A stretch of DNA of 64,000 nt from an uncultured Clostridium sp. (GTDB lineage Bacteria > Bacillota > Clostridia > TANB77 > CAG-508): NCBI GenBank assembly GCA_964608075.1, contig CAZSMG010000002.1:5154-69153 (forward strand), written 5' to 3'. The notes under the pieces were generated by a model, which was not told where the DNA came from, ran no database searches, and saw only the letters and a list, made by a program, of their open reading frames with translations. The stretch's first letter is position 1. Every line of letters starts with the position of its first letter. Shown in pieces: positions 43,024-59,845 of the stretch. Both the position numbers and the translations under genes were made by a program.

Positions 43024-43099
43024 CGCGGGGTGGAGCAGTTGGCAGCTCGTCGGGCTCATAACCCGAAGGTCGATAGTTCGAGTCTATCCCCCGCAACCA
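43024..43099 (+). tRNA. Initiator tRNA-fMet (anticodon CAT)
   Basis: C1 is opposite A72 (cgcgggg...ccccgcA). Three consecutive G-C pairs in the anticodon stem (tcggg-ctCATaa-cccga). Encoded CCA. Confidence 0.85.
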
Positions 43100-43110
43100 A
43101 GAATTTTATT

Positions 43111-43145
43111 AGAGTCGCAAGAGATTGTGGACTCTTATTTTTTTG
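43111..43145 (+). terminator. Rho-independent terminator after tRNA-fMet
   Basis: Hairpin agagtc-gcaagagattgtg-gactct followed by TTATTTTTTT. Confidence 0.7.
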
Positions 43146-43171
43146 ACCTTAAGCGTAATTTTGGCGTAAGT

Positions 43172-43189
43172 GGGGACAATTTGGGGACA
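43172..43189 (+). repeat. Arm-type repeat GGGGACAATTTGGGGACA, left copy
   Basis: Matches 59696-59713 (GGGGACAAATTGGGGACA) in the same orientation. Confidence 0.6.
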
Positions 43190-43293
43190 GTCCCTACATT
43201 TTTATGCATTAAATAGCATATTTTAGCCTAACTAATTTATATTAAACTTTGAAAATCAAAAAAGTAATTTTCGAGAAATTTTGAAAAGAGTTT

Positions 43294-44481
43294 TTATACG
43301 AGCATCTCCTCTAAAACATTACCAGCTTCTTTATTATGAGCTTCAACTGGATGTACATAGAAGTTTAAGGTAGTAGTTATTTGAGCATGCCCTAATCTTG
43401 ATGCTACAACAGCTACATCTACATTTTTAGATATAAGCAAAGTAGCATTTGTGTGTCGCAAACCATGAAAAGTAATTTTTGGTAAGTTGTTCTTTTCAAT
43501 AAAAGAACGAAACCAATCTGTAACTGTATCAGGATGCATTGGATTACCATTCCAAGTAACAAATAGCCTGTTTGAGTCATTCCATAAATCGCCAAATCTT
43601 TCTTTTTCAGCATCATACCAAGTTTTGTACTTATTAAGCATATTTATAACAATATCCGGAATTCCGACTTTTCTTATTGAACTATGTGTTTTTGGATCTT
43701 TTACGAAAATGCCTTTTTCAGATGTGTATTGACTTGCCTTAGTAATATTAACAAAACCTTCTTTAAAATCAATATCTGACCATTCTAAGCCTAATACTTC
43801 GCCTCTACGCATACCAGTAAACAATGTTAATATAACAATAGTTTGAAATTTGATTTCTTCATTTTCTAATGCTTCTAATAATTGTTTACATTGAATATCA
43901 TCGTAGTATTTAATTTGAGGTCTTTGGTGTTTAGGTGGCTTAACTCTGTCAGCTGGATTAAAGGGAAGTATTTGCCAATATACTGCGTTTTGTAGCATTG
44001 CATGTAGTAAACGATGATGCTCTAGTATTGTTTTAGAAGATAGACTCTTCATTACAGTCTTTCCATTATGATTTTTACATCTTTTTAATTGATGATCTTT
44101 TGAAAGATCATCGTAAAAATTCATAATGTGCGGTGGCTTGATATCGCATAACTTATAATGCCCAAAGTATGGAAGAATTCGAGATTCTAGCATTCCTTTA
44201 TATCTTTCATAAGTTTTTGGCGATAATTCCTTTTTGCCATAATTTTTAGCCCATAAATCTGTAAATTCTTTAAATGTCATTGAAGAGTTTTGCAAAACGA
44301 TACCATTTTCAACTTCATAAACAAAGTTCACAAGTTCTTTATCTGCTTCACGCCTACTATTTGCTTTGATGCTCTTAGTATATTTGATTCTGTTACCATA
44401 GCTGTCAAAACCATGTGATACAATTAATCTCCATGAGCGTTTGCCTCTCTTTTCAAGATACCCTGCCATTACTTTTTTCAC
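43294..44481 (-). CDS. int: Tyrosine-type site-specific integrase
   Basis: C-terminal catalytic region GLRHTNATLLI...LGHAQITTTLNFYVH (R, H-x-x-R, Y). N-terminal SAM-like domain. Adjacent to the tRNA. Confidence 0.9.
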   Translation of the reverse strand: MKKVMAGYLEKRGKRSWRLIVSHGFDSYGNRIKYTKSIKANSRREADKELVNFVYEVENGIVLQNSSMTFKEFTDLWAKNYGKKELSPKTYERYKGMLESRILPYFGHYKLCDIKPPHIMNFYDDLSKDHQLKRCKNHNGKTVMKSLSSKTILEHHRLLHAMLQNAVYWQILPFNPADRVKPPKHQRPQIKYYDDIQCKQLLEALENEEIKFQTIVILTLFTGMRRGEVLGLEWSDIDFKEGFVNITKASQYTSEKGIFVKDPKTHSSIRKVGIPDIVINMLNKYKTWYDAEKERFGDLWNDSNRLFVTWNGNPMHPDTVTDWFRSFIEKNNLPKITFHGLRHTNATLLISKNVDVAVVASRLGHAQITTTLNFYVHPVEAHNKEAGNVLEEMLV

Positions 44482-44525
44482 CTCCTTTCAGCATACCTAT
44501 GGCAAGGATTTTAAGTAATATTAAA

Positions 44526-44936
44526 TTAATATAAAATCATTCCAGAACCTAAAGCTTCATTAGGTCTTGAAATAAATCCAAATTTTTCATAAAAAGATTC
44601 TTTTCCTTTTGATGCACCTAAATAAGTTCTAATATTAGGATTAATCTTTTTATATTCTTTTATTTGAGTTAATAAGTTTTCCATTATTCCAGTGCCAATA
44701 TGTTTATTTTGATACTCAGGAATTACCATTATATCTTGAATATATAAAAATATAGTTTTATCCCCAATGATTCTTCCATATCCAATTAATTTATTATCAT
44801 CATAAACACATAATGAATATAAGGTATTCTCTAAAGCTGTTTCGACTATTGAATTTTCTCTAATTCCCCAACCTACAGAATCTGTTAAATAATTAAATTC
44901 TTCTGCAGAAGGAGTATGCATTATATATTTAATCAT
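44526..44936 (-). CDS. GNAT-family N-acetyltransferase
   Basis: Acetyl-CoA binding motif (QNKHIGTGIMENLL). 136 aa. Confidence 0.75.
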   Translation of the reverse strand: MIKYIMHTPSAEEFNYLTDSVGWGIRENSIVETALENTLYSLCVYDDNKLIGYGRIIGDKTIFLYIQDIMVIPEYQNKHIGTGIMENLLTQIKEYKKINPNIRTYLGASKGKESFYEKFGFISRPNEALGSGMILY

Positions 44937-44952
44937 ATTCTATACCTCTTTC

Positions 44953-46164
44953 TTAATAATTCTTTCTAGTTTCTTCTATCCATTTTTTAAATTCTTCTTC
45001 TGTTTTCAATCCGTTTTTAATATCTTTCTTAAATTCATTAGCTTCATTTTTCCATTGCTCATATTTTTCTAAATACATTGGAATATCAGGATTTCTATTC
45101 GCTAACATTTTTTTTGCTGATAAGGTTTTCCTATATAAAGAATTTATTTCATCTTTTTTTAACTTTTCATTATAAGTAATCATTGCTCCAATTTCTTGGC
45201 ACGTTTTGCTATGTTCATATATGTTGTTACAATATAAAGTATTCTTTTTTGAAGAAGGTATAAAGTAATTACCACAATGTTTACAAATGTATATTGGTGT
45301 ATTATTTTTTATTAATTCTAAAATACTTATAAAACAAGCAGTTTCAATTACATGACAGTTAAAACAAAGAGATGTAAAAAAATCATCATCATATTCTGTA
45401 GGATAATTTCTTATATATTCTGAAATTGCCTTGGCATTTTCTTCAAAATTGCCTGTATTAGGACATGAACCTATATTTAGAAATTTCATTGGTTCAACAT
45501 CATATGTAAGAGTTATATATGAACTTAATATTATGGACATGTCTGAATAATTAGTAAAATCAGCTTGCTTGTATATAAAAAATCTTTCTGCAATGGAAAA
45601 GTTTTCTAAATACTCTAAATTTGATAAGTTATTTATAAAATTGATGATTGTTTTAAACTGAAATTGATAGTCTATTAAAATTTTCTTTCGTTTTTCATAA
45701 TTGTTTTTACAAACCAAAATGAAGTCTTTTTCAGTTAAAAAAATATTTTCTTTATCGTTAGTAATATTTAATTTTGTATATTCATTAAAGGGGTTACCAA
45801 TATCTTCATCATCACTATTAAAGACTAAAGCTGGTAATCCATAATTATATATAAATTCTAAAAAAGAATTAAAATCTGTAAAATCATAGTTTAAAAATTT
45901 TAATAAAGTTGTTCCTAGTTTATTTTTTTCATCAGTAAAATCAGATTTATATAATTTGCAAATACTATCAGAATAGGTTGAAAGATACTTGGTATATTCT
46001 TTTTTTGTTTTAAATTCATCTCTTTCTTTAAGTAATGTATATGTGTCGTCTGCTTTATTATATATTGCATTTACTGTAGAAAAAGCGTCTCTTGTAAAAA
46101 GTTCCATATCATTTATGGTTGACATTTTCATATAATAGATTCTGGATACAACATCAAATTTCAT
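44953..46164 (-). CDS. Hypothetical protein (403 aa) with a C-terminal Cys-rich zinc-finger-like region
   Basis: CFNCH...CKHCGNYF...C pattern. No family assigned. Divergent from the xis-like gene. Confidence 0.5.
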   Translation of the reverse strand: MKFDVVSRIYYMKMSTINDMELFTRDAFSTVNAIYNKADDTYTLLKERDEFKTKKEYTKYLSTYSDSICKLYKSDFTDEKNKLGTTLLKFLNYDFTDFNSFLEFIYNYGLPALVFNSDDEDIGNPFNEYTKLNITNDKENIFLTEKDFILVCKNNYEKRKKILIDYQFQFKTIINFINNLSNLEYLENFSIAERFFIYKQADFTNYSDMSIILSSYITLTYDVEPMKFLNIGSCPNTGNFEENAKAISEYIRNYPTEYDDDFFTSLCFNCHVIETACFISILELIKNNTPIYICKHCGNYFIPSSKKNTLYCNNIYEHSKTCQEIGAMITYNEKLKKDEINSLYRKTLSAKKMLANRNPDIPMYLEKYEQWKNEANEFKKDIKNGLKTEEEFKKWIEETRKNY

Positions 46165-46195
46165 ATAATCCTCCCTGTTAGCAATTTAATTTTTG

Positions 46196-46300
46196 CAAAA
46201 TATGTTGTTAACTGATATCGAAAATCAACAAAGATTATTGACTAATCAAAAATTAACAATTAAAATACAAATTATAAAATTGTTAACAACATTATACACA
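46196..46300. promoter_or_regulatory. Divergent promoter/operator region with three TTGTTAAC-type palindromic motifs
   Basis: ttgttaac at 46205-46212, ttaacaa at 46253-46259, and the perfect 10-bp palindrome ttgttaacaa at 46280-46289. They lie between the divergently transcribed 403-aa ORF and the xis-like gene. Confidence 0.45.
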
Positions 46301-46356
46301 GCTAATTTTAAATTGTCAATACAAAATTTAAAATTTAGCGATTTAAAAGATGGGAG

Positions 46357-46572
46357 GTGATTAATATGGCAATAGAGAGAATGCAAAGGACAACTTTAAC
46401 AGCTAAAGAAGCAGCAGAATATTTAGGAATATCTTATTGGTTAATTACACAATTAGTTAAAAGAAAACAAATTCCGTGTTCTAGAGTTGGAAAAAGAATT
46501 TTATTTAGAAAAGAAGCATTAGATATTTATCTAAGCAAAAAAGAAAATGATTCTGTAGAAGAATCTTGTTAG
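46357..46572 (+). CDS. xis: Excisionase/Xis-like helix-turn-helix DNA-binding protein
   Basis: HTH_17-type motif LTAKEAAEYLGISYWLITQLVKRKQIPCSRVGKRILF. 71 aa. Confidence 0.7.
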   Translation: MINMAIERMQRTTLTAKEAAEYLGISYWLITQLVKRKQIPCSRVGKRILFRKEALDIYLSKKENDSVEESC

Positions 46573-46586
46573 AAAGAAGGGAGGAA

Positions 46587-47054
46587 ATGGGACAAGTTGG
46601 ATGGATAAAAGTAAATACAAATATATTTTCAAATAGAAAAATTAAAATCCTGCTAAAAGAAAGGGAAGGGGACACTTATTTTAGAATATGGATTCAAATT
46701 TTAACTATTGCTGGAGAATGTAACAGAGATGGTGGTTTATATATTAGTGATAATACACCATTTAAAATCAGAGATTTTACAAATATTATTGGAAAATCTT
46801 CGAAAACATTTACGAAAATCTTACAAAAATTTATTGATTTAGGAATGCTAATTTATAAAAATGATACATACTTCGTAAAGAACTGGAGCAAGTATCAAAG
46901 TGCCGATAAACTTAAGAAAATTGGAAAATCAAATAAAGTGATTGAAGAAAATTTAATTGAAAAAAGTTTTAATAATACAGAAGAAAAGATAAGAAAAGAA
47001 GAAAATAGAAAGGAGACCAGAGTAGATGAATCAAATTTTGAAACCCTCGATTAA
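46587..47054 (+). CDS. Phage replisome-organiser / DnaD-like N-terminal domain protein
   Basis: The winged-helix-like N-terminal region resembles phage replisome organisers. The start is set at the internal ATG (MGQVGW), which has an AGAAGGGAGG RBS. The track ORF uses a TTG at 46566 that overlaps the xis stop. Confidence 0.55.
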   Translation: MGQVGWIKVNTNIFSNRKIKILLKEREGDTYFRIWIQILTIAGECNRDGGLYISDNTPFKIRDFTNIIGKSSKTFTKILQKFIDLGMLIYKNDTYFVKNWSKYQSADKLKKIGKSNKVIEENLIEKSFNNTEEKIRKEENRKETRVDESNFETLD

Positions 47055-47895
47055 TAAAGATGATTTTATTGAGTGTGAATACTGCCAAAATAAATTATAT
47101 AGAAAAACAATTGAGTGGGAATTATATGGGACAAAAAGAACAATAGAATTAGATTATGAAAGATGTAATTGTAATGATGCACAAGCATACTGGAATGAAT
47201 ATGATTTAAATAAAATAAGGACGCTAGAGGAAGAAAAAAAACTAGAATTAATGCAAGAATTTTCAAAAAGAGTTGAGAGAATTATAAAAAATAGCAAGAT
47301 GAGTAAAAGAAATTTAAGTTATAAATTTAATAATTTTGAGCCAAATAATAGTAATAGAAAAATATTTAATAATTTGAAAAACTATAGTGAAAAATTAGTA
47401 AATGGTATAGAGAAAAAGGGATTAATTTTGGTAGGAAATAATGGAATTGGTAAGACACATTTAGCTTGTAGTATTGCAAATAAATTAATTGAAAATGGAA
47501 CACCAGTAATATATGGTACATTAATTAATTTATTAGCAGAATTAAGAAATTCATATGATACAGATAATAATATTTCAGAGATGGAAATTATCAAATTGTA
47601 TGAAAATGTTGACTTATTAATCATAGATGATTTAGGAAAAGAAAAACCAAGTGAATGGGGATTAGAAAAGTTATTTACTATTGTAAATAGTAGATATGAA
47701 AATAATTTACCAGTAATTATAACAACAAATTATAATCAAAATTCTTTAATGGAGAGACTAAGTTTAAATGGAGAAATTGAGACAGCAAAGTCAATTATTT
47801 CAAGATTATATGAGATGTGTTATCTTGTAAAAATAGATGATATAGATCATAGAATTCAAAAGAAAAAAGTTAGTAATTGCGACAACAATGACTAA
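47026..47895 (+). CDS. DnaC/IstB-like AAA+ helicase-loader ATPase with an N-terminal Cys-rich zinc-finger-like segment
   Basis: Walker A GNNGIGKTH, Walker B LLIIDDLGKE, and CEYCQN...CNCND upstream. It overlaps the preceding gene. Confidence 0.8.
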   Translation: MNQILKPSINKDDFIECEYCQNKLYRKTIEWELYGTKRTIELDYERCNCNDAQAYWNEYDLNKIRTLEEEKKLELMQEFSKRVERIIKNSKMSKRNLSYKFNNFEPNNSNRKIFNNLKNYSEKLVNGIEKKGLILVGNNGIGKTHLACSIANKLIENGTPVIYGTLINLLAELRNSYDTDNNISEMEIIKLYENVDLLIIDDLGKEKPSEWGLEKLFTIVNSRYENNLPVIITTNYNQNSLMERLSLNGEIETAKSIISRLYEMCYLVKIDDIDHRIQKKKVSNCDNND

Positions 47896-47979
47896 CTAAA
47901 AAGATTACTTTTTTAAATGTTTTCTATAAAAATTATAAATTATTTTTTCAAAAAAGTAAATAAAAATTGATAAAAAATT

Positions 47980-48220
47980 AGGACAAGCAAGTAGCAAAAT
48001 ATTTACACACTTGTCCTAATTTTTAAAAGAAAATGAATAAAAGATGAACAAAAAAGATCCCTCGGAGAGCCAAAAGGGTATTAGGGCATTTTGCCCTAAA
48101 CAGCAAAAAGGGTGTCAAGACACCATGCTGGCGAATAAAGGGCACTTAAAAATCCACTTTATTCGGAGCAAATAAATTTGCTCAAATTTTCTGAAATTCG
48201 CTTTCGCTATTTCAGAAAAT
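47980..48220. promoter_or_regulatory. Cluster of five consecutive inverted repeats (candidate oriT / single-strand origin / operator array)
   Basis: aggacaag...cttgtcct (47980-48017), tagggcattttgcccta (48082-48098), ggtgtcaagacacc (48111-48124), gagcaaataaatttgctc (48166-48183), ttctgaaattcgctttcgctatttcagaa (48189-48217). Local G+C is elevated. Confidence 0.45.
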
Positions 48221-48245
48221 ATAAGATCAGAAATGGAGAAAAAAT

Positions 48246-48866
48246 ATGAGAGTAATTATGGATGAATTTGATCATGTCTTTTTACCTTATTGGAAAATAC
48301 TAGACAAATTAAAAATATTAAATATAAAAACTAAAAATGGAAAAGAGATAAGTCATAAAGATTTGCGAAAGGCAATATCTGTTATGATAAAAAAACATCC
48401 TACATGTAGATGGAGAAGTGAAAAAATTAGAAGTAAAAGATATTACATTTTGTTTGAAGGATATCTATGGTTAATATACGTATATTTTCAATCAGAAAAG
48501 AAACAAATAGATGCTGATGTAGATTTTTTCAAACTGAGAATAGGAGTATATGAAGAATTTTTAAAAGTAAATCCTGAATCATTATGGAATGAAGATATAA
48601 GTTTTTCGGATTTAGAAAATTATTTTCACAGAAAGAAAGATACAATACATAGAGCAATGGTGAAAATGGCTAAAGAAAATTTTGGAAATACTTTTACTTA
48701 TTATGATAATGATAAATTACTTGTTTCAAAAGAAGGCATTGAATGGCTATGTAAAAATTGTTTCAAGCAAAAGTATTTGGAATTATTAGAAGAATACAAA
48801 ATGGAATTAACAGAAAAATACATTGAAGCAGGATATGTTTATGATGAATTTTTTGGAATGAATTAA
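48246..48866 (+). CDS. Hypothetical protein (206 aa)
   Basis: ORF immediately downstream of the hairpin cluster. No recognisable motif. Confidence 0.5.
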   Translation: MRVIMDEFDHVFLPYWKILDKLKILNIKTKNGKEISHKDLRKAISVMIKKHPTCRWRSEKIRSKRYYILFEGYLWLIYVYFQSEKKQIDADVDFFKLRIGVYEEFLKVNPESLWNEDISFSDLENYFHRKKDTIHRAMVKMAKENFGNTFTYYDNDKLLVSKEGIEWLCKNCFKQKYLELLEEYKMELTEKYIEAGYVYDEFFGMN

Positions 48867-48880
48867 AGGAGGTATCGATT

Positions 48881-49282
48881 ATGAAACATTATTTAAATCC
48901 AGATCAAAGAAGAAAAAGTATAAAAGTATGGGTTTCTGATGAAGAAAGAGCTTTAGTTGAAGCTAAAGCATACAATTATGGCTATAGAAGGATTGCACCA
49001 TATATTAGAGATGCAGCAATTTATGAAAGAGTAACTAATGTAGAAGTAAAAGGAGAAAAAGAAATTCTTAATGCATATGCTGAGAATACTAGAGAAGTTA
49101 AAAGTATCGTTAAAGATATAAGACATATTTGTAAATTTGCTACACAAATTTCTGAAAGAGATAGACAGGAACTTTTACATCTAATGAAAGCCATATATAA
49201 AAAGCAAAATAAAATGCTAGATCTTATTGATAAAAAACTTGATTTAGAGGTATGGCAAGAAGTTAATCGTAATAAAAATTAA
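48881..49282 (+). CDS. MobC-like ribbon-helix-helix mobilisation/relaxosome accessory protein (tentative)
   Basis: N-terminal RKSIKVWVSDEERALVEAKAYNYGYRRIAPYIRDAAI pattern typical of MobC/RHH proteins. AGGAGG RBS. Confidence 0.5.
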   Translation: MKHYLNPDQRRKSIKVWVSDEERALVEAKAYNYGYRRIAPYIRDAAIYERVTNVEVKGEKEILNAYAENTREVKSIVKDIRHICKFATQISERDRQELLHLMKAIYKKQNKMLDLIDKKLDLEVWQEVNRNKN

Positions 49283-50356: not shown

Positions 50357-51092
50357 TTCAGGGGGTTCAAAAATAGCAAAAGATGGATTTGAAAATGAAA
50401 AGGATATTGCTAATAAATTTATTAATTGGAAAGATGATATAGAAGCACAACAATGGTTAAAAACCATGGGATATAATCTAAATGATATTGAATATGTTTA
50501 TGCAGAAGTTTTACATGGATATAAAACGGATGTACAAGTTCAAGTAACAATAAAACTCAAAAATATTATTGATGCACAAAATTTACAAGTAAAGTTAGTA
50601 AGTAATGCAAAAGGATTCAATCAAATAGATAAAAGATGGATAAAAAATTATGCTGAAATGTGGGAAATGCCTGATAATATAGTTAGATTGCTAAAATATT
50701 ATACGGGAGAGTTTGAACCATATAAGAAAGATACAAGAGATAAAAGAAGAATGTTTATGGATGAATTTTCAGAACAAGAACAAAATGAAATATTAGAATA
50801 CTTTGAACAAAATAAAATGCTTATTATCTTAGACATTGTAAAAGGAAGGGGAAAATTTGCAGCCGAATGGATTTTAGTTGCACAAAAGTATGAAGATATA
50901 TTTAGATGGATATTGAAGCCTATAAATGTTGCTATTAATCATTATAGTGAAGGAAAAGTAGAAATAACTAATAGAGGAAACTTGAAAATTGGAAGAATTG
51001 GAATGCAGAGGAAGGGTGGAGATGCGGGAAGAGAAACCGCAAATATGTTACAGTTTAAAGTAGATCCAATTGAATTGTTTAATTTAAATTAA
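50349..51092 (+). CDS. Putative cognate Type II restriction endonuclease (247 aa)
   Basis: Its start overlaps the methyltransferase stop by 8 nt (translational coupling). The size is typical of small Type IIP enzymes. A terminator hairpin follows at 51108-51145. Confidence 0.5.
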   Translation: MDSSGGSKIAKDGFENEKDIANKFINWKDDIEAQQWLKTMGYNLNDIEYVYAEVLHGYKTDVQVQVTIKLKNIIDAQNLQVKLVSNAKGFNQIDKRWIKNYAEMWEMPDNIVRLLKYYTGEFEPYKKDTRDKRRMFMDEFSEQEQNEILEYFEQNKMLIILDIVKGRGKFAAEWILVAQKYEDIFRWILKPINVAINHYSEGKVEITNRGNLKIGRIGMQRKGGDAGRETANMLQFKVDPIELFNLN

Positions 51093-54100: not shown

Positions 54101-54635
54101 GAGGGCTTATTCAGTAAAAATGCTAATAGCATTTATAAAGAATAATTATAATAATTTTTATAAAGAAATTGATAATGATAGTATTGTATTTAATTTGGAA
54201 GAAATAAATGGAATTCTTGAATCAGATGTTACACCAAATATGAAAAATAAGTGTATTAATATGATTCGAAATGATGAAATAGAAAGTCTACCAATAGTTT
54301 TATTAGAGAATATTTCATTAGTATCTATAAATAATAACTTAAAAGATAATATAAGTGAAGAAATTCTATTAAAGATTATTATGAATATACAAAATATAGA
54401 ATCAAAGATAAAATTGATAAACTTAAATTTTAGTAAAGTAAGTAGAGATAATATAGATATATTACTAAAAAGTTTAGGTGAGGATTATTATAAAATAATT
54501 GTTAACAGAACAAGGCCAAGTTTAAAACATAATGAATCTAATATATTACTATTAGAAAATATCAAAAGTTTAGGATATAAAATTAAACATGAAACTAATG
54601 GGCAAACTATAAAATTAAAAAATACAATTAGATAA
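51165..54635 (+). CDS. KAP-family P-loop NTPase (1156 aa) with TM helices inserted in the NTPase domain and a long K/E/N-rich helical C-terminal region
   Basis: Walker A ITGQYSSGKSS, Walker B KYIVFEDLDRF. Two to four hydrophobic helices (ILTGILVAFINIGIYLF, TTLIFIFLEIICLTSIIGCSISFV) lie between them. This is the KAP hallmark. Confidence 0.8.
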   Translation: MEENTNYEVLIPNNMIENKAEDALEFALKNEKIRNVAITGQYSSGKSSMIQSYFGKYCKEKEYLNISLATFEKKENANEPIEESNSLERVIIEKLYYSFLKKYDKQENIKESILTGILVAFINIGIYLFNIEAIRNSLNDNFWTTLIFIFLEIICLTSIIGCSISFVMNFQKIKLKLGDVEVEVNHNSKETSRNLLNEEIDFIVKIMSIAKYKYIVFEDLDRFQNPKIFERLRDLNITLNSTLKNKVKFIYAIKDEMFIADNRTKFFDFIIPVVPYVSYENSGEELLKIIRKHGLENELSEDFILDIALYIPDMRILKNTINEYIIYKKTLDKKPPNYEKLFSILLYKNTCSQDFAKLQNKDGEVYKCFSKKSEVIEKYIEEKQEEIEDKKKEHKELEKNLISKNSIKELAVYYMKSISKDYQVTLKSIEGKEVRIQLGMNVENISDNILFSDNTTIEYVYNGSWKTENLSNFFKEKCPGFFEQYEIFREGVDDIKEKISMEIGKINEEIDKIRECTLSELLQENGKIVTVSLGKYSDLIKYLLNNGYIDENYSTYINKFHEGSITENDYNFIMNVRNGKQNNYKDKLDNTIKIIKRLKNAEFKKEEILNIDILDVLIENDLYVEKKNIFFSTLIKSNRYVEFIKYCICESETFKNKNKMITNLCKLDKDILNKVQDSKIENRYKNFILEDIIIKIEIDNLKELNNIDEILKYSEENNLLKKAKIVDIKDKIDQFDIKYNNISEFKDNIDLYKYIVENNKYKINYENILEILMNESKSNKDEIEEENYYSISKNKQLKKYIDEDIEFYIGNVYSKLPKKQKNPIGIVVDLLNNSNMNAESKRKIIIKEINKIEDISEIQDSGLWKVIFDNNLVKLGWKNINNYYEKLGLDETLINIFNDKEKRKLLLQDNIKIEDNSNSEFIRDLLLSNNLNEEAHSLILKNSEYKLSNVEISELKEEKLLKLVNNKRIEFSNEMIEKVRAYSVKMLIAFIKNNYNNFYKEIDNDSIVFNLEEINGILESDVTPNMKNKCINMIRNDEIESLPIVLLENISLVSINNNLKDNISEEILLKIIMNIQNIESKIKLINLNFSKVSRDNIDILLKSLGEDYYKIIVNRTRPSLKHNESNILLLENIKSLGYKIKHETNGQTIKLKNTIR

Positions 54636-54750
54636 TAATTATTGTATAAAATTTCAATATATAAGATATTAACTTAAATTCATTTCGTTGTCAAAAGGTG
54701 TTATTTATGATAGAATGCTATCAAATAATTATATTTTTAGGAGACCAATT

Positions 54751-54936
54751 ATGAAAATTAAGTGTTTAATTTGTGGAAACATAATAGAATCAAAAAGTGT
54801 ACATGATTTAGCATCTTGCAAATGTGAATCGTGTTATATTGATGGTGGAAGTTATTATGCACATATAGGTGCAAGAGACTTTAATAAAATTGTTAAAATT
54901 TTGGATGATGGAATAGAAGTTAAATGTTGCAATTAA
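54751..54936 (+). CDS. Small zinc-ribbon protein (about 61 aa)
   Basis: CLICGN...CKCESC...CC pattern. AGGAG RBS 7 nt upstream of the MKIKCLICG start. The track ORF starts at 54688. A terminator-like hairpin (gcaaaata...tattttgc plus T-run) follows. Confidence 0.5.
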   Translation: MKIKCLICGNIIESKSVHDLASCKCESCYIDGGSYYAHIGARDFNKIVKILDDGIEVKCCN

Positions 54937-55091: not shown

Positions 55092-57440
55092 ATGAATATT
55101 GTAGAAAATGGAGTAAAAGTAGATTTTCACATACATTCTATTGCATCTAAACATAAAGAAGAGTCAGGAAAAGTTGAAAATTCGACAATTGATAAATTGG
55201 ATATATTAATAAAAAATCTAAATGATAGACAAATCAATATGTGTTCAATTTCTGATCATGATAATTTTGATATAAATATTTATAAAGCTTTAAAGAAACA
55301 AGAAAACAAAGGATCTATAAAGAAAGTTTTACCAGCAGTAGAATTTTCAGTAAAGTATGATTCAAAAGTAATACATATTATTACAATTTTTGAAGATAAT
55401 GATGACAATAAATTGGAGAATATTAACAAACTTATATTTGATAATAAGAAAAATATTCCATTATATGACCAAGAAATGTCATTTTCAGAAGAAAAATTTT
55501 TAGAGATATTAAAGAAAATAGATTTAAATGTTGTTATGATTGCACATCAAAAAGAAAGTTTAACAAGTAATAAAATAAGAAACAATGATGTTATGTCTTT
55601 AGGAAAAGAAAAATTTAATGAATTAGTATTTATAGATTATTTTGAATCTTTTGAATTCAAAAACAAAAGAAATGAAATATTTAATAAATATTATATAGAA
55701 AATAATCAAGAAAATTTAAATAGTGAAGATTTAAGATTTATTACTGGAAGTGATTGTCATAAATGGAGTGAGTATCCATTAGAAGATGAAAAATTCTCTT
55801 TTACTTATTTAAAATGTTTGCCAACATTTAGAGGATTGGCAATGGCAATTACAAATACTAAAAGAATAAAATTAGTAAATAGCTTTTTTTCAAATAGTGA
55901 TAATAAAGTTGATAGTATAAAGATTTCGATTAATGGTAAGGAAAAAAATATTCCTTTATCAAGAGGAATAAATGCGATCATAGGAGATAATTCAATAGGA
56001 AAATCATTATTACTTCATAAAATAACTAATTATGAATACTTAAAAGATTCAAAAATAGAAAAGAAGTATGAAGAGTATTTAAACAAAAATAATATTCAAC
56101 TTGAAACATCTATTTCACAAGATAAAATATATAGAGTTGATAAACAGGGTGCAGTAAGGGAAATGTTTGAAAAAAAGACTTTTAATGTAAATGGATTTTT
56201 AAATGAATATTTTCCTCCTGTACCAAATGTTGAAAAATATAAAACTAAGGTAAAGGATGAAATACATAGATATATACAAGATATAAAGGATAATTATGAT
56301 TATAGAGAAAATAAAAAGAAAATATCTAGTTTTTATATAAAATATTTTGAAGAAAATGCAAAATCATTAAATCTTCAAAAAACTAGAAAGAATTTTAAAG
56401 CTAAAATCCAAAAACTAAATAATATTATAGCTGAGTTTGAAGATATTAATTTGAAGCTAGATAAACTAATTAAAAATAAAGATGTTTTTGAAGATGATGT
56501 TAAATTATTGGAAGAACAGAAGAATATTTATTATAAATTGATAGATAAATATAATCAAGAAATTGAAAGGTGGAAATTTGAAAATAGTAAGATTAAGATT
56601 GTAAATGATTGCTTAGGAAAATTGGCACAGAAGTTACAGAAATCTAAAACTGATAATACAAAGGCAATAGAAAATTACGAAAACACATTAGAGACATTCG
56701 AAGATAATATCGTAAATTTATATTTGCAATCAAAAAAAGAAAGAATCTATTCTGCGAATATAAAGAAGGAAATAATTCCTATAGAATATAATAATGTTGG
56801 TACATATAGATTTATTAATAAATGTGATGTTGAAGAAGTATCAAATGAGTATATTATAAAAAGTATTCAAAAGGTATTAGGCAAAAAAATTAAAGATATA
56901 AATACTTTAACAGAAGATAATATTTCAGAGAAGCTAGAAGGAGAAGACTTTTACGAAAAATTAGATAATTTAGAGAAAGAAATATACAAAAAGATTGAAT
57001 CAGACTTTAAATACAAGCCAATAATAAATAACTTAGAGGATAAAGATATTACTAAAGAATTGTCAGCTGGATTTAATTCAAAGATATATTTTGATATATT
57101 ATCCGAACAAAGTCAAAAAGATGGTATATATATAATAGATCAACCAGAAGATGATGTATCACAAAAGTCAATTAAAGAGTATTTGTTAGAAGATTTTTAT
57201 AATATGAGTCAAAATAGACAAATTATCTTAGTAACGCATAACCCTCAATTTATTGTAAATTTAGATGTTGATAATGTCATTTATCTAGGAAAGAATGAGG
57301 ATAATGAAATTATAGTACAAAGTGGAGCATTGGAGTATTTTAATGAAGAATATGATATGTTAAAAATTGTGGCAGATAATATAGATGGAGGAATTAGTTC
57401 TATTAATGAAAGGTGGAAAAGATATGAAAAAAATATATAA
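55092..57440 (+). CDS. PHP-domain phosphoesterase fused to an ABC-type (OLD/Rad50-like) ATPase with a coiled-coil insert
   Basis: N-terminal PHP motifs DFHIHSIAS and SISDHDN. Walker A GDNSIGKS. A long coiled-coil segment of about 300 aa. Signature-like LSAGFN, Walker B IYIIDQPEDD, H-loop ILVTHNPQF. Confidence 0.8.
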   Translation: MNIVENGVKVDFHIHSIASKHKEESGKVENSTIDKLDILIKNLNDRQINMCSISDHDNFDINIYKALKKQENKGSIKKVLPAVEFSVKYDSKVIHIITIFEDNDDNKLENINKLIFDNKKNIPLYDQEMSFSEEKFLEILKKIDLNVVMIAHQKESLTSNKIRNNDVMSLGKEKFNELVFIDYFESFEFKNKRNEIFNKYYIENNQENLNSEDLRFITGSDCHKWSEYPLEDEKFSFTYLKCLPTFRGLAMAITNTKRIKLVNSFFSNSDNKVDSIKISINGKEKNIPLSRGINAIIGDNSIGKSLLLHKITNYEYLKDSKIEKKYEEYLNKNNIQLETSISQDKIYRVDKQGAVREMFEKKTFNVNGFLNEYFPPVPNVEKYKTKVKDEIHRYIQDIKDNYDYRENKKKISSFYIKYFEENAKSLNLQKTRKNFKAKIQKLNNIIAEFEDINLKLDKLIKNKDVFEDDVKLLEEQKNIYYKLIDKYNQEIERWKFENSKIKIVNDCLGKLAQKLQKSKTDNTKAIENYENTLETFEDNIVNLYLQSKKERIYSANIKKEIIPIEYNNVGTYRFINKCDVEEVSNEYIIKSIQKVLGKKIKDINTLTEDNISEKLEGEDFYEKLDNLEKEIYKKIESDFKYKPIINNLEDKDITKELSAGFNSKIYFDILSEQSQKDGIYIIDQPEDDVSQKSIKEYLLEDFYNMSQNRQIILVTHNPQFIVNLDVDNVIYLGKNEDNEIIVQSGALEYFNEEYDMLKIVADNIDGGISSINERWKRYEKNI

Positions 57441-57699: not shown

Positions 57700-57727
57700 G
57701 AAGGCGAAACAATCGCCTTCTTTGAGA
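57700..57727 (+). terminator. Rho-independent terminator
   Basis: Hairpin gaaggcg-aaacaa-tcgccttc followed by TTTG. Confidence 0.7.
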
Positions 57728-57732
57728 GTATA

Positions 57733-59197
57733 GAAAAAGTTGTGTAAATAAATCCTTCCGTGATAAAATATAAAATATCAAGGAGGGATTTTTTCTATGG
57801 GTAAAAAAGTAGAAAAAGAAAAAAATGAATTAGTAGAGGAGTTTTTTAGAAGAAATGATCCAAAAAATATTAAATCTATGAATGATATGTATGCAGCATG
57901 GAAAGATTTCTTTGCTCCTGCTTTCCAACAATTGCTAGATGCAGAAATGGAGGCTAAAATTGGTTATTCTAAAAATGAAAGAACAGATAATAACAATTAT
58001 CGAAATGGATATTATCCAGAAAGAACTGTAGCAACAGAAATGGGAGATATTCCAGTAAAAGTACCTAGAGATAGAAATGGAGAAATTGACTCTAATTTAG
58101 TTCCTAAATATTCACGAACAGCAAATGGATTTGATGAAAAGGTAATATCTATGTATGCTTTAGGAATGTCTGATAAAGATATTCAAGAACAAATAAAGGA
58201 AATATTTGGTTGTAATCTTTCACCAGACATGATAAGTGATATAACAGATAAGATTATACCAGAAATACAAGAATGGCAAAAAAGGAAACTAGAAAGTGTT
58301 TATCCAATAGTATTCATAGATGCAACACATTTCCATGTCCGCGATAACGGACAAATAGTAAAGAAAGCTGCATATGTAGTGTTAGGAATTGATAAAGATG
58401 GAATGAAGAAAGTATTAACAATAACAATAGGAGAAAATGAAAGTGCAAAATATTGGATGACAGTATTAAATGAACTCAAAAATCGAGGAGTACAAGATAT
58501 TCTAGTATTATGTGCAGATGGACTAACAGGACTAAAAGATGCAATATCAGCTATTTATCCTAAAACAGAATATCAAAGATGTATAGTACATCAAATAAGA
58601 AACTCATTAAAGTATGTTCCATACACAGATAGAAAAGAATTAGCTAATGACTTAAAAACAGTTTACAAGGCAAGTACAGAAGAAATCGGCTATACAAATT
58701 TATTAGAATTAGAAGAAAAATGGAAAAATAAATATCCTGGTGCAATTCAAAGTTGGATAGATAATTGGGATGTACTTTCCGTATTTTTCAAATTCTCAGC
58801 AGAAATACGAAAAATAATGTATACAACAAATGCAATAGAAAGCTTAAATAGTACATATAAAAGGATTAACAGAAATAGAAATGTATTTCCAACAGATATG
58901 TCTTTACTAAAAGTTCTTTATCTTTCAACATTGAAAGCAGAGAAAAAATGGTCAAGAATGGTTGATAAATGGGACTTATGTTTGTCCCAATTTAGAATTA
59001 TGTATGAAGGTAGAATATAGTTAAAAGCCTAAAATAATAGGCTTAAGAAGAAATTTTCTTAAGTCCTATTAATTTTACACAACTTTTTCTAAAAAATTGA
59101 TTTTTTAGAAAAATATTATTAAAATAAACATAGTTATAAAAATATTAATTTTTTCAAGTTATCAATCGGAAGGAAATCCGATTTACACAACTTTTAC
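57733..59197 (+). mobile_element. IS256-family insertion sequence, with a second nested copy of the right inverted repeat
   Basis: Left IR gaaaaagttgtgtaaataaatccttcc (57733-57759). Right IR-like ...tcctattaattttacacaactttttc (about 59063-59090). A second IR copy ggaaggaaatccgatttacacaacttttac (59168-59197). A mutator-type transposase gene lies between them. Confidence 0.8.
57797..59020 (+). CDS. IS256-family (mutator-type) transposase
   Basis: 407 aa. Conserved DDE region (VFIDATHFHVRDNG...LVLCADGLTGL...YQRCIVHQIRN). Confidence 0.9.
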   Translation: MGKKVEKEKNELVEEFFRRNDPKNIKSMNDMYAAWKDFFAPAFQQLLDAEMEAKIGYSKNERTDNNNYRNGYYPERTVATEMGDIPVKVPRDRNGEIDSNLVPKYSRTANGFDEKVISMYALGMSDKDIQEQIKEIFGCNLSPDMISDITDKIIPEIQEWQKRKLESVYPIVFIDATHFHVRDNGQIVKKAAYVVLGIDKDGMKKVLTITIGENESAKYWMTVLNELKNRGVQDILVLCADGLTGLKDAISAIYPKTEYQRCIVHQIRNSLKYVPYTDRKELANDLKTVYKASTEEIGYTNLLELEEKWKNKYPGAIQSWIDNWDVLSVFFKFSAEIRKIMYTTNAIESLNSTYKRINRNRNVFPTDMSLLKVLYLSTLKAEKKWSRMVDKWDLCLSQFRIMYEGRI

Positions 59198-59271
59198 GAT
59201 ATTCTCCTTCCTTTCTCCTTTTTGACATTTTAAAGTGCAATTTTATATTTTTAAAGTGCAAATTTTGCACT

Positions 59272-59577
59272 TTAAAATGAAACATTATTATTACAACATC
59301 CCATAATCAACTGCACCCCATCTACAAAACCATTCCTATAATACTTCTCATTCCAATAATCAATATAATTCATAAAATTCTCATCAAGAAAACCAAGCTG
59401 TTTTTGAACATATTTCCTATCTTTTTTAGGAACACGTTTTAAAATCCTTTCAGAAATCTCATCAAAATAAATATGATGTTTTCTATCCTCATCACAAGTC
59501 AAAGAACATAAATCCTCCTCTCTAAAATTTAACCAATCTTTTAAAATATCATTATTAACCTCTCTAAAATTATTCAT
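59272..59577 (-). CDS. Hypothetical protein (about 101 aa)
   Basis: GGAGG RBS with an 8-nt spacer to the MNNFREV start. The track ORF begins at 59607. Confidence 0.45.
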   Translation of the reverse strand: MNNFREVNNDILKDWLNFREEDLCSLTCDEDRKHHIYFDEISERILKRVPKKDRKYVQKQLGFLDENFMNYIDYWNEKYYRNGFVDGVQLIMGCCNNNVSF

Positions 59578-59695
59578 TGTTAAAACCTCCATTTTTATAA
59601 ATTTCAAAATTTAACACATCAAAACACAATAAAACTTGCAAATACAAATTCAAAAATCCATTGAAATTTCATGTATTTGATGCCTCAAAAAACTG

Positions 59696-59713
59696 GGGAC
59701 AAATTGGGGACAA
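59696..59713 (+). repeat. Arm-type repeat GGGGACAAATTGGGGACA, right copy
   Basis: Matches 43172-43189. Confidence 0.6.
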
Positions 59714-59830
59714 TGCTAGCAAAAATAGACCTATTTTAACCTAATTCATAATCACACCAATTTGCTATAACCCTATTAAAACCAATAAAAACTCAAGTTA
59801 ACAAAATTTCTCAAAAACACTTATTAAATT

Positions 59831-59845
59831 CTCATAACCCGAAGG
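59831..59845 (+). other. Putative attR core: 15-nt exact copy of the tRNA-fMet anticodon stem-loop segment
   Basis: ctcataacccgaagg is identical to 43055-43069. The following sequence only weakly resembles the tRNA 3-prime half. Confidence 0.5.

What the first reader, a model, noticed from the sequence alone, without database searches (positions are those of the whole stretch)
43024..59845. About 16.8-kb integrative island in the initiator tRNA-fMet gene, with an anticodon-loop att core and arm-type repeats
A 15-nt segment of the tRNA-fMet anticodon stem-loop (ctcataacccgaagg, 43055-43069) recurs exactly at 59831-59845. A chance 15-mer match in 64 kb is improbable. A near-identical 18-nt motif GGGGACAAWTTGGGGACA sits about 120-135 bp inside each core, at 43172 and 59696, which fits integrase arm sites. 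Between the cores lie int, a GNAT gene, xis, a DnaD/DnaC-like replication module, a MobC-like gene with a hairpin cluster, an R-M system, a KAP NTPase, a PHP-ATPase and an IS256-family element. No capsid or T4SS genes are present. The content resembles a satellite/PICI-like or mobilisable island that uses its cargo space for defence genes. Integration into the anticodon loop of the essential initiator tRNA also stands out.
Basis: partly seen in the sequence, partly recalled or inferred. Interest (0 to 1): 0.8.

Follow-up and report, generated by a model that had tools for sequence, protein, structure and literature searches.

The report
Defence-carrying integrative island in tRNA-fMet
A 16.8-kb mobile island carrying anti-phage genes sits inside the initiator tRNA gene of an uncultured gut bacterium and rebuilds that gene with its own copy of the 3' part; this is an ordinary kind of element, from a very common family that has not been described.

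Summary
CTCATAACCCGAAGG occurs only at 43055 and 59831, and GGGGACAAWTTGGGGACA occurs only at 43172 and 59695.

Comparison with more than 60 related loci fixes both ends to the base. Homology to other copies starts at 43055 and stops at 59845.

The element is a tyrosine-integrase island inserted at the anticodon loop of a genuine initiator tRNA. The island supplies tRNA positions 39-76 and a terminator. The displaced original 3' part still lies right of the second core, but it has decayed to 18 of 30 matches, with 10 of the 12 differences replacing G or C by A or T.

- **Backbone (about 6.2 kb, conserved):** int, DUF6076, xis, replisome organiser, DnaC-like loader, hairpin cluster, orf206, NikA-like protein.
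- **Cargo (about 10 kb, variable):** HinP1I-type R-M, Tmn, a PHP-ATPase and an IS256-family element.

No relaxase, T4SS, terminase or capsid gene is present, so the transfer route is open: satellite-like or mobilisable.

The type IV restriction enzyme and NUDIX pair just right of the island is cargo in a sister island, so the locus is probably a tandem array.

Anticodon-loop integration is the commonest tRNA sublocation. It is a new member of a known kind, of moderate interest.

The parts
43024..43099 (+). Initiator tRNA-Met(CAT) gene. Positions 1-31 are host-derived. Positions 32-46 are the shared core. Positions 47-76 are island-derived.
   Evidence: ARAGORN and Rfam at 62.4 bits. C1xA72, A11:U24 and three G-C pairs are read. 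A consensus promoter lies at 42978-43006.
43055..43069 (+). attL core CTCATAACCCGAAGG: anticodon loop, 3' strand of the anticodon stem, and start of the variable loop.
   Evidence: Homology with island copies that have other left flanks starts here.
43070..43144 (+). Island-borne tRNA 3' part (43070-43099) and terminator hairpin AGAGTC..GACTCT plus T run (43111-43144).
   Evidence: The same tRNA half and hairpin follow the core in the 21 'class A' loci, 16 of which lack a tRNA 5' half to their left.
43172..43189 (+). P' arm-type repeat GGGGACAATTTGGGGACA: two 7-mers 11 nt apart.
   Evidence: It lies about 117 nt from the core in all 43 scored related loci.
43294..44481 (-). Tyrosine integrase. 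The start is probably the ATG at 44469, giving 391 aa.
   Evidence: Phage_integrase 3.9e-26 and Phage_int_SAM_3 6.9e-19. phrog_1 6.9e-81. The 391-aa form is on record, in a 90%-identity cluster of 1759 members.
44526..44936 (-). GNAT acetyltransferase, a variable accessory gene between int and DUF6076.
   Evidence: Pfam. Absent from most related loci.
44953..46164 (-). DUF6076 protein, a conserved backbone gene. It sits where a master regulator would sit; its function is unknown.
   Evidence: Pfam 4.8e-08. Present in most related loci and in L170. No paper mentions DUF6076.
46183..46334 (.). Divergent promoter region between the leftward DUF6076-GNAT-int genes and the rightward xis-replication genes.
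   Evidence: A 12/12 consensus promoter on the - strand at 46319-46291, and 10/12 matches on the + strand at 46238-46280. These are pattern matches only.
46357..46572 (+). Excisionase-type HTH protein (xis, AlpA-like).
   Evidence: HTH_17 1.3e-11 and Tn916-Xis. TIGR01764 excisionase family 5.2e-13.
46566..47054 (+). Replisome organiser, N-terminal domain type (DnaD-like).
   Evidence: Phage_rep_org_N 3.5e-23, phrog_4880 and phrog_186, TIGR01714.
47026..47895 (+). DnaC/IstB-like helicase loader ATPase.
   Evidence: IstB_IS21 8.8e-23. phrog_50 2.5e-57.
48060..48225 (+). Cluster of five hairpins, a candidate origin (ori or oriT). Its function is not shown.
   Evidence: Folds at -38.6 kcal/mol against -17.9 for shuffles, z = -6.5. 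Conserved in 32 related loci, but mostly through invariant sequence with little covariation. No Rfam family matches.
48246..48866 (+). orf206, a conserved backbone protein and a likely DNA-binding protein with winged-helix-like domains.
48881..49282 (+). NikA/MobC-like ribbon-helix-helix protein. It marks the end of the conserved backbone.
   Evidence: NikA-like 27.6 bits against a cut-off of 27. The L170 counterpart carries NikA-like and MobC hits. Backbone homology ends near 49290.
49355..51092 (+). Type II restriction-modification system: C5 cytosine methylase (49355-50356) and HinP1I-like endonuclease (50349-51092).
   Evidence: Pfam 1.7e-94 and 2.1e-89. PADLOC MTase_II and REase_II.
51165..54635 (+).
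   Evidence: YobI-ATPase 3.2e-86. PADLOC Tmn 1e-55.
54688..54936 (+). Small DUF7695 protein.
   Evidence: Pfam 4.4e-15.
55092..57440 (+). PHP-like domain plus AAA-like ATPase (TrlF/Ppl-like), a probable defence gene.
   Evidence: NCBIfam TrlF family 1.2e-45, which is below the family cut-off. The C-terminus resembles anti-phage Ppl and the N-terminus resembles PHP phosphoesterases. Weak PADLOC PDC-M49A hit.
57724..59206 (+). IS256-family insertion sequence, transposase at 57797-59020. The right end is uncertain because the right inverted repeat occurs twice (59074-59091 and 59181-59206).
   Evidence: Transposase_mut 1.9e-110. Inverted repeats.
59272..59577 (-). orf101, the conserved distal-end gene of the family. 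Function unknown.
   Evidence: 1681 homologues, typically 97-102 aa. The 101-aa form is on record. It lies next to the P arm in L156-L167, L170 and L010.
59695..59712 (+). P arm-type repeat GGGGACAAATTGGGGACA.
   Evidence: It sits at the same place in L156 and L158. Sister islands carry other phased motifs there.
59831..59845 (+). attR core CTCATAACCCGAAGG.
   Evidence: Homology with L156, L157 and L158 ends at 59845.
59846..59875 (+). Degenerate displaced tRNA 3' part (positions 47-76), outside the island.
   Evidence: 18 of 30 positions match. 10 of the 12 differences replace G or C by A or T; the other two are a T-to-C change and a one-base deletion (my reading). The ARAGORN test gives 17 of 3000 controls. 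A less decayed counterpart is present in L168.
60102..63431 (+). Right neighbour: a SauUSI-like type IV restriction enzyme (60102-63032) and a NUDIX protein (63045-63431). Probably cargo left by another island of the family.
   Evidence: PADLOC mREase_IV 8e-232 and PDC-S07 5.2e-51. 82% identical over 3.3 kb to cargo inside the sister island L170.

Best explanation
Bases 43055-59830 (16,776 nt plus one core copy) are a site-specific integrative island. It belongs to a large, undescribed family found in uncultured, very AT-rich gut Clostridia/Bacilli.

**Shown**
- The island lies in a genuine initiator tRNA gene.
- Its two ends are the two copies of the 15-nt core.
- It encodes an intact tyrosine integrase next to the tRNA and an excisionase-type protein.
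- A pair of 11-nt-phased GGGGACA repeats sits at a fixed distance inside each end.
- The part of the tRNA to the right of the core, and its terminator, travel with the island.
- The backbone (int to NikA-like gene) is conserved and the rest is variable defence cargo.

**Inferred**
- The integrase binds the phased repeats as arm sites. It exchanges strands within or next to the 7-nt anticodon loop CTCATAA, between a circular island (attP) and the tRNA gene (attB).
- The gene is split but rebuilt from the host 5' part plus the island 3' part. The original 3' part is pushed to the far end, where it has since decayed under AT-biased mutation.
- Xis and Int reverse the reaction. The replisome organiser and DnaC-like loader then replicate the circle from the hairpin-rich region.
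- The circle is moved to new cells by a helper: a phage (satellite-like) or a conjugative element (mobilisable).
- The host gains restriction-modification, Tmn and a PHP-ATPase.

The present island is young relative to its site. The displaced half is old, so islands have probably replaced one another here by integrating side by side and resolving. The type IV enzyme and NUDIX pair on the right looks like a leftover of such a neighbour.
For: **Repeats**
- The repeats are exact and unique in the window.

**Left boundary**
- 17 related loci with different left flanks become homologous to the window at 43055, or at 43054 in two of them.

**Right boundary**
- Homology with L156, L157 and L158 stops at 59845, and the right flanks then differ.

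**Family**
- 56 metagenome loci have integrases mostly 90-96% identical to the window's. Their backbones are 79-96% identical in DNA, and their content differs beyond about 49.3 kb.
- The integrase cluster at 90% identity has 1759 members.

**tRNA restoration**
- In 21 loci the core is followed by a well-formed tRNA 3' half, with compensating T-stem variants and the same terminator.
- Five of these adjoin a tRNA 5' half, as the window does.

**Crossover**
- In L088 and L119 a tRNA-fMet is broken directly after CTCATAA.

**Displaced half**
- ARAGORN test, 17 of 3000 controls. L168 provides an intermediate at 23 of 30 matches.

**Complete sister island**
- L170 has both cores, int, DUF6076, xis, replisome organiser, a NikA/MobC-like gene, defence cargo including CBASS-like genes, and the orf101 homologue.

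**Tandem arrays**
- Six int-proximal junctions abut P arms carrying different phased motifs. L102 has another island's GNAT gene about 9 kb to the left.

**Cargo and promoters**
- Divergent promoters lie between DUF6076 and xis.

**General model**
- The split-and-restore model and the frequency of anticodon-centred sites are in PMC4383910.
Against: - No empty site and no circular junction of this particular island was found. Same-species contigs (98% identical) all end inside the tRNA.
- No composition contrast.
- The displaced half is only weakly recognisable: P about 0.02 by alignment and about 0.006 by the ARAGORN test. The flanks of L010, L156, L158 and L170 are not recognisable at all.
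- Similarity of the right flank to a full island P' arm is not significant.
- 32 of 43 related int-proximal junctions are neither tRNA nor a recognisable P arm. The simple model does not explain this.
- No gene for transfer (relaxase, coupling protein, terminase, capsid) was detected. orf206 gave no informative fold match.
- Precise excision would join the tRNA 5' part to the decayed half, so excision may be counter-selected unless another tRNA-fMet gene exists. That cannot be seen in 64 kb.
Confidence: 0.85

Rival explanations
1. The island is a phage satellite (PICI-like). A helper phage induces it; it excises, replicates with its own organiser and loader, and is packaged in helper capsids.
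For: - int, an AlpA/Xis-type HTH protein and a phage-type replication module are arranged around a divergent promoter region. The size is 10-21 kb, there are no structural genes, and the cargo is defence genes.
- int plus AlpA plus a primase/replicase is the 'Type C PICI' level of SatelliteFinder (PMC10085698). This island has a replisome organiser and a loader in place of a primase/replicase.
- Satellites of 7-20 kb with integrase, regulation and replication genes but no structural genes are described in Streptococcus thermophilus (PMC13376191, abstract).
Against: - No small terminase, capsid-remodelling or packaging-interference gene was detected.
- No relative of the integrase in IMG/VR and no match of the backbone in the phage collection.
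- Type C elements are explicitly said to include other kinds of mobile element.
Confidence: 0.35
2. The island is an integrative mobilisable element. After excision, a relaxase supplied by a co-resident conjugative element nicks an oriT in the hairpin cluster, with the NikA/MobC-like protein as accessory factor.
For: - A NikA-like ribbon-helix-helix protein lies at the end of the backbone. Its L170 counterpart also hits MobC.
- A conserved five-hairpin region lies just upstream of orf206 and the NikA-like gene.
- Accretion in tandem and elements without their own integrase are described for IMEs and CIMEs (PMC5704250, listed).
Against: - No relaxase of any Pfam or NCBIfam family and no coupling protein.
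- The NikA-like score is at the threshold, 27.6 against 27.
- The hairpins show almost no covariation, so they prove only conservation.
Confidence: 0.3
3. The 16.8-kb unit is only the first member of a larger composite. The core at 59831 is an internal junction of a tandem array whose true end, with the host's own displaced tRNA part, lies beyond 64000.
For: - The type IV enzyme and NUDIX pair starts 257 nt right of the core. It is 82% identical to cargo inside the sister island L170, and it also lies downstream of an attR-type end in L168.
- Heterologous tandem junctions are seen in six related loci. Tandem arrays at tRNA genes are known.
- This is compatible with the main explanation.
Against: - No second integrase, P' arm motif or further core lies between 59846 and 64000.
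- Similarity of 59846-60101 to a P' arm is not significant.
- Defence modules also move between contexts on their own.
Confidence: 0.5
4. The element is a fixed, no longer mobile remnant. The 15-mer persists by chance or by descent.
For: - The displaced half is decayed.
- An IS256-family element has landed in the cargo.
- Precise excision would give a damaged tRNA.
Against: - int, xis and the replication genes are full length.
- Both cores are identical and both arm repeats are intact.
- The backbone is 93-96% identical, and the distal module 91-97% identical, to copies in other hosts. The surrounding host genes of those loci are only 65-73% identical. This points to recent horizontal movement.
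Confidence: 0.12

Closest known systems
tRNA/tmRNA-gene genomic islands with anticodon-centred attP (Islander class A; PMC4383910)
   Same: - A tyrosine integrase lies next to an intact tRNA gene.
- The island restores the split gene.
- A displaced 3' fragment in direct orientation marks the far end.
- The crossover is at the anticodon loop.
- Tandem arrays occur.
   Different: - The identity block is reduced to 15 nt because the displaced fragment has decayed.
- The target is the initiator tRNA of an uncultured gut lineage with 25% G+C.
- Many family members sit at cores that lack the tRNA 5' half.
Phage-inducible chromosomal islands and other phage satellites (SaPI/PICI; SatelliteFinder 'Type C'; S. 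thermophilus satellites, PMC13376191)
   Same: - Size.
- int, an AlpA/Xis-type HTH protein and a phage-type replication module around a divergent control region.
- No structural genes.
- Defence cargo.
   Different: - No terS, ppi, cpm or capsid genes.
- A replisome organiser plus DnaC-like loader replaces Pri-Rep.
- No helper phage is known.
- No relative of the integrase in the viral contig collection and no match of the backbone in the phage collection.
Integrative mobilisable elements and cis-mobilisable elements formed by accretion (PMC5704250)
   Same: - An integrase and excisionase module.
- A MobC/NikA-like accessory protein.
- Side-by-side integration of different elements at one att site.
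- Integrase-less remnants.
   Different: No relaxase gene and no demonstrated oriT.
Tandem genomic islands at the tmRNA gene of Dehalococcoides (PMC3146451; abstract only)
   Same: Islands with variable cargo that integrated site-specifically at a single-copy small-RNA gene (ssrA).
   Different: - A different target gene and phylum.
- The cargo is catabolic rather than defensive.
Defence-system carriers among integrated elements (P4-like and PICI hotspots, pipolins; PMC10121019, PMC11551731, PMC10201445)
   Same: A conserved integration and replication platform with an exchangeable set of defence systems.
   Different: A different backbone, with no PolB and no P4 genes, and different hosts.

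Membership tests
tDNA-integrated genomic island (Islander definition) | Tyrosine integrase gene inside the candidate, next to the tRNA gene | tested here: met
   int lies at 43294-44481, 195 nt from the tRNA 3' end.
tDNA-integrated genomic island (Islander definition) | Intact tRNA gene at one end and a fragment of the same gene, in the same orientation, at the other end | tested here: met
   A 15-nt exact repeat plus a degenerate 30-nt continuation.
tDNA-integrated genomic island (Islander definition) | Island DNA restores the split gene | tested here: met
   The tRNA 3' half and terminator travel with island copies that have no tRNA 5' half on their left.
tDNA-integrated genomic island (Islander definition) | Empty site in relatives, or a detectable circular form | tested here: inconclusive
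   Relatives at 82-86% identity have unoccupied tRNA-fMet genes, but in a different arrangement. Same-species contigs end inside the tRNA.
PICI / phage satellite | Integrase plus AlpA/Stl-type regulator plus a replication module | tested here: met
   int, an HTH_17 excisionase-type protein, Phage_rep_org_N and a DnaC-like loader. The replication genes are not of the Pri-Rep type.
PICI / phage satellite | Packaging or hijacking module (terS, ppi, capsid morphogenesis, or own capsid genes) | tested here: not met
   No such hit in Pfam, PHROGs or NCBIfam. The orf206 fold is not terminase-like.
PICI / phage satellite | Induction and packaging by a helper phage | not testable with these tools
   No relative of the integrase in IMG/VR and no match of the backbone in the phage collection. 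This is only weak negative evidence.
Integrative mobilisable element | Relaxase gene or a recognised oriT | tested here: not met
   No relaxase family hit. There is only a borderline NikA-like accessory protein and an uncharacterised hairpin cluster.
Integrative conjugative element | Type IV secretion and coupling protein genes | tested here: not met
   None among the ORFs of 43-60 kb that were scanned.
Prophage | Capsid, tail, terminase and lysis genes | tested here: not met
   None found. The family is consistently 10-21 kb.
Bacterial initiator tRNA | C1xA72 mismatch, three consecutive G-C pairs at the bottom of the anticodon stem, A11:U24, CAU anticodon | tested here: met
   Read from the sequence and the ARAGORN drawing. 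The criteria come from my own knowledge.

The most novel reading that the evidence does not exclude
The 15-nt anticodon-loop core may work as a landing pad on its own, without the tRNA 5' half. Every displaced or orphaned core near a tRNA-fMet locus would then stay usable.

A whole guild of related islands shares that core but has different arm-site specificities (GGGGACA, GGGGAAA, GGGTAAA, GGCGAAA). It includes a class that has lost the tRNA-restoring segment. These islands would stack, replace one another and invert segments there. The tRNA-fMet neighbourhood would become an integron-like exchange platform for defence cassettes in these gut bacteria.
Probability: 0.25. Interest if true: 0.6.

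Novelty: new member of a known kind. Interest (0 to 1): 0.35.

Why it matters
- **A precise map.** It gives a base-precise map of a mobile defence carrier that is extremely common in human and animal gut metagenomes. The integrase cluster at 90% identity has 1759 members, and the orf101 and orf206 families have about 1700 and 2000 cluster representatives. It lives in bacteria that have not been cultured. Several of its core genes (DUF6076, orf206, orf101) have no known function.
- **Use for annotation.** The core and arm signature can delimit these islands and their cargo in metagenomes. That is a practical way to harvest new defence systems from this lineage.
- **An evolutionary point.** An island can outlive the tRNA fragment it displaced, so the host comes to rely on island DNA for that copy of its initiator tRNA.
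- **Limits.** None of this changes the established picture of tRNA-targeting islands.

Tried and rejected
**Searches that found nothing useful**
- Exact-protein look-ups of the left-flank kinase, the integrase (both starts) and the right-flank enzyme found no contig.
- No relative of the integrase in the viral contig collection, and no match of the backbone in the phage collection.
- Same-species contigs were found through the kinase's 90% cluster, but all stop inside the tRNA. The empty-site test failed for lack of sequence, not because of a contrary result.
- No flank of any related island was found in an unoccupied state among the loci held.
- G+C gives no signal.

**Tests that were not significant**
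- I tested whether 59846-60101 is a decayed island P' arm (tRNA half, terminator, arm repeats). The local alignment score of 40 is within the null distribution.
- I tested whether the flanks after the distal cores of L010, L156, L158 and L170 are decayed tRNA halves. They are not recognisable as such.
- The hairpin cluster matches no Rfam family and shows little covariation.

**Ideas considered and rejected or weakened**
- *Secondary-site integration as the reason for non-tRNA left flanks.* Disfavoured, because every independent distal end keeps the full core.
- *The island holds the only initiator tRNA hostage.* Weakened. Relatives carry further tRNA-fMet copies near the islands, and L006 has lost this copy altogether.
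- *The C28:G42 pair of occupied tRNAs arose by compensation after integration.* This pair is seen in 6 of 6 occupied tRNAs, against T28:A42 in 10 of 10 unoccupied ones. The simpler reading is that position 42 lies inside the attP/attB identity block, so only tRNAs that already have G42, and hence C28, are used.

Full report
**1. The observation**

ARAGORN finds one tRNA-Met(CAT) at 43024-43099, and Rfam's tRNA model scores 62.4 bits there. The sequence has C1 opposite A72, A11:U24, and G29-C41, G30-C40 and G31-C39. By my own knowledge of tRNA identity elements these are the marks of a bacterial initiator.

The 15-mer CTCATAACCCGAAGG covers tRNA positions 32-46. Even with one mismatch allowed it occurs only at 43055 and 59831. 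No shuffle of the window gives a match.

GGGGACAAWTTGGGGACA occurs only at 43172 and 59695. Both copies are on the + strand and both lie inside the interval.

**2. Gene content**

*Left part*
- A tyrosine integrase, a GNAT gene and a DUF6076 protein on the - strand.
- An excisionase-type HTH protein, a Phage_rep_org_N replisome organiser and a DnaC/IstB-like loader on the + strand.
- A 350-nt gap, then orf206 and a NikA-like protein.

*Cargo*
- A C5 methylase with a HinP1I-like endonuclease.
- A YobI-type NTPase that PADLOC calls Tmn.
- DUF7695.
- A 782-aa protein with a PHP-like N-terminus and a TrlF/Ppl-like ATPase.
- An IS256-family element with inverted repeats at 57724 and 59181.
- A small - strand gene, orf101.

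No capsid, terminase, relaxase or secretion gene was detected. A 12/12 consensus promoter points leftwards from 46319. Good matches point rightwards from 46238 and 46253, so the element has a divergent control region between DUF6076 and xis. The gap upstream of orf206 folds into five hairpins much better than shuffled sequence, z = -6.5.

**3. Host**

Homologues of the left-flank kinase-like gene come from uncultured gut 'Clostridia/Bacilli' assemblies of human, rabbit, sheep, goat and chicken, such as Clostridium sp. CAG:433 and CAG:575. The best is 86% identical. G+C is about 25% throughout. The island (25.2%) does not differ from its flanks.

**4. The left boundary**

A scan of metagenome contigs with the integrase gave 56 loci, most with integrases 90-96% identical to the window's. 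Their DNA is 79-96% identical to the window from the core to about 49290, and unrelated beyond that.

In 15 loci whose left flank is not a tRNA, homology starts at window base 43055, the first base of the 15-mer. In two more it starts at 43054. In five loci (L083, L090, L095, L103, L106) the left flank is the tRNA 5' half with its promoter, as in the window. The phased GGGGACA pair lies about 117 nt right of the core in every locus that could be scored.

**5. The right boundary**

The small distal gene has 1681 homologues. Contigs carrying close ones (L156-L167) show the same layout: gene, phased GGGGACA pair, 118 nt...AAATT, then CTCATAACCC(G/C)AAGGTC. After that the sequences diverge from one another and from the window. 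BLAST homology of L156, L157 and L158 with the window ends at 59845.

L170 holds a complete sister island of 21 kb. It is flanked by CTCATAACCCGAAGG and CTCATAACTCGAAGG and has the same backbone order and a different defence cargo.

**6. How the tRNA is handled**

In 21 related loci ('class A') the core is followed by a well-formed tRNA 3' half and the same terminator hairpin as in the window. This holds whether or not a 5' half lies to the left. The T-stem variants compensate each other: GATAG/CTATC, GTAAG/CTTAC, GTAGG/CCTAC, GCAAG/CTTGC. So the island carries positions 39-76 and keeps them tRNA-like.

In L088 and L119 a tRNA-fMet is broken directly after CTCATAA. That places at least one exchange inside or at the edge of the anticodon loop.

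This is the standard split-and-restore scheme. Anticodon-centred sites are its commonest form, 2083 of 3919 islands in Islander (PMC4383910).

**7. The displaced half**

The standard scheme predicts the old 3' half to the right of the second core. In the window that sequence is CTACAAGTTTGATTTTTATTCTGCAAACAC. It matches the tRNA at 18 of 30 positions when one gap is allowed. Of the 12 differences, 10 replace G or C by A or T; the other two are a T-to-C change and a one-base deletion (my reading).

An alignment test against random pieces of the window gives P about 0.02. A sharper test was to join the tRNA 5' part and core to this flank. ARAGORN then still draws a cloverleaf, with a weakened acceptor stem, a weakened T stem and a damaged T loop. 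Only 17 of 3000 random flanks from the window do that.

L168 shows an intermediate stage, TCAAAAATTCGACTCTTACTCCACAACCA, with 23 of 30 matches and P about 1e-4. The flanks of L010, L156, L158 and L170 are no longer recognisable.

So the 15-mer is the surviving part of a longer repeat. The site is much older than the present island, whose backbone and distal module are 91-97% identical to copies in hosts whose own genes are only 65-73% identical.

**8. The neighbour on the right**

The gene starting 257 nt after the core is a PLD-helicase-DUF3427 protein, which PADLOC calls a type IV methyl-directed restriction enzyme (8e-232). It is followed by a NUDIX protein, PDC-S07.

This 3.3-kb pair is 82% identical to cargo inside the sister island L170. 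It also lies 6 kb downstream of an attR-type end in L168.

Six related int-proximal junctions abut the distal arm of a different island. These can be recognised by a phased repeat of another sequence at the same distance from the core: GGGGAAA, GGGTAAA or GGCGAAA. L102 has another island's GNAT gene 9 kb to the left.

Side-by-side integration of different family members is thus common. The window's right neighbour is probably what remains of one. This is not proven: no second integrase or arm motif lies before 64000, and the flank does not align significantly with a P' arm.

**9. What remains unexplained**

- Of 43 int-proximal junctions, 5 are tRNA, 6 are foreign P arms and 32 are neither.
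- The same non-tRNA left flank recurs with different islands.
- A 'class B' of 22 loci has only CTCATAACCCG in common with the tRNA. It is never next to a tRNA 5' half: 0 of 22, against 5 of 21 for class A.
- Nine loci have a tRNA-fMet, complete or partial, in inverted orientation 4.6-9 kb to the left.
- Integration into unrelated secondary sites is unlikely, because every independent distal end keeps the full core.
- Orphan cores may be reused as landing pads, and integrase-mediated inversions may occur. I could not test either idea.

**10. The 28:42 base pair**

All 6 occupied tRNAs have C28:G42, and all 10 unoccupied ones have T28:A42. Position 42 lies inside the shared core. The simplest reading is that the islands only use tRNAs that already match the core. 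Compensation after integration is not needed.

**11. Transfer route**

The backbone reaches the 'Type C PICI' level: integrase, an AlpA-type protein and a replication module. The authors of SatelliteFinder say that level also includes other kinds of element (PMC10085698). The NikA/MobC-like protein and the hairpins would also fit mobilisation by conjugation.

**12. Verdict**

The element is a well-delimited, probably still mobile, defence-carrying island of a known kind. It belongs to an undescribed but very abundant family.

The anticodon-loop target is normal. The initiator tRNA as target is less usual but has precedent: by my recollection, which I did not check here, an island sits at metV in uropathogenic E. 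coli.

Interest is moderate. It lies mainly in the family-level behaviour around tRNA-fMet and in the uncharacterised backbone genes.

Noticed in passing
window 60102-63431: A SauUSI-like type IV restriction enzyme plus a NUDIX (PDC-S07) pair forms a 3.3-kb module. It recurs at 82-83% identity as cargo inside sister island L170 and downstream of another attR-type end in L168.
   Followed up: yes
L137-L155 (IMG/VR contigs): The exact 18-mer GGGGACAAATTGGGGACA occurs in 19 viral contigs with G+C from 0.30 to 0.59 that show no other link to this island. A broad group of integrases may share this arm-site motif.
   Followed up: partly
L084, L085, L087, L100, L104, L124, L010, L170 (about 120-160 nt left of the core): Sister islands carry other 11-nt-phased repeats (GGGGAAA, GGGTAAA, GGCGAAA, GGGGAGA) at about the same distance from the same core. 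This suggests subfamilies with different arm specificity but a common crossover site.
   Followed up: partly
L091-L094, L099-L102, L104, L105, L108, L110-L121, L124, L127, L129: 'Class B' islands share only CTCATAACCCG with the tRNA and lack the tRNA 3' half and terminator. None of the 22 adjoins a tRNA 5' half.
   Followed up: partly
L088 (reverse-complement coordinates 3186-3216 and 9760) and L119 (5096 and 9716): A tRNA-fMet in inverted orientation is broken right after CTCATAA. Flipping the 4.6-6.5 kb between the two CTCATAA copies would rebuild an intact tRNA next to the integrase. This may be an integrase-mediated inversion.
   Followed up: partly
L121, reverse-complement coordinates about 1410-1470: An inverted tRNA-fMet is interrupted in its T loop (tcgtaagttc|cttaccccc|aaaatg...). 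This may be the site of a different element.
   Followed up: no
tRNA-fMet genes in the window and in L001-L003, L083, L086, L090, L091, L095, L098, L103, L106, L121, L122, L133, L174: Base pair 28:42 is C:G in all 6 island-occupied genes and T:A in all 10 unoccupied ones.
   Followed up: partly
window 48060-48225: Five consecutive hairpins (z = -6.5) lie between the helicase-loader gene and orf206. They are conserved across the family, and no Rfam family matches.
   Followed up: partly
window 57724-59206: The right inverted repeat of the IS256-family element is present twice (59074-59091 and 59181-59206), so the right end of the element is ambiguous.
   Followed up: no
L088, reverse-complement coordinates 6198-9581: A tandem duplication of a NUDIX, ASCH and TehB-like methyltransferase module lies directly left of the island.
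   Followed up: no
window 35364-43024, compared with L001, L083, L091, L095: The position and orientation of the ComEA-like gene relative to tRNA-fMet differ between relatives. They are adjacent in L083 and L095 and 6.8 kb apart in the window. In L001 the ComEA-like gene is downstream and inverted. The neighbourhood of this tRNA is rearrangement-prone.
   Followed up: no
L006, reverse-complement coordinates 11848-13347: A related island (integrase 56% identical) sits beside the orthologous kinase gene. There is no tRNA 5' half, the core has one mismatch and the tRNA 3' half is decayed. This copy of the tRNA gene has been lost in that genome.
   Followed up: partly
L125, reverse-complement coordinates 1-2614: A truncated integrase of this family abuts DNA homologous to window 12945-14766, near tRNA-Lys(CTT). 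This may be a remnant at another locus.
   Followed up: no
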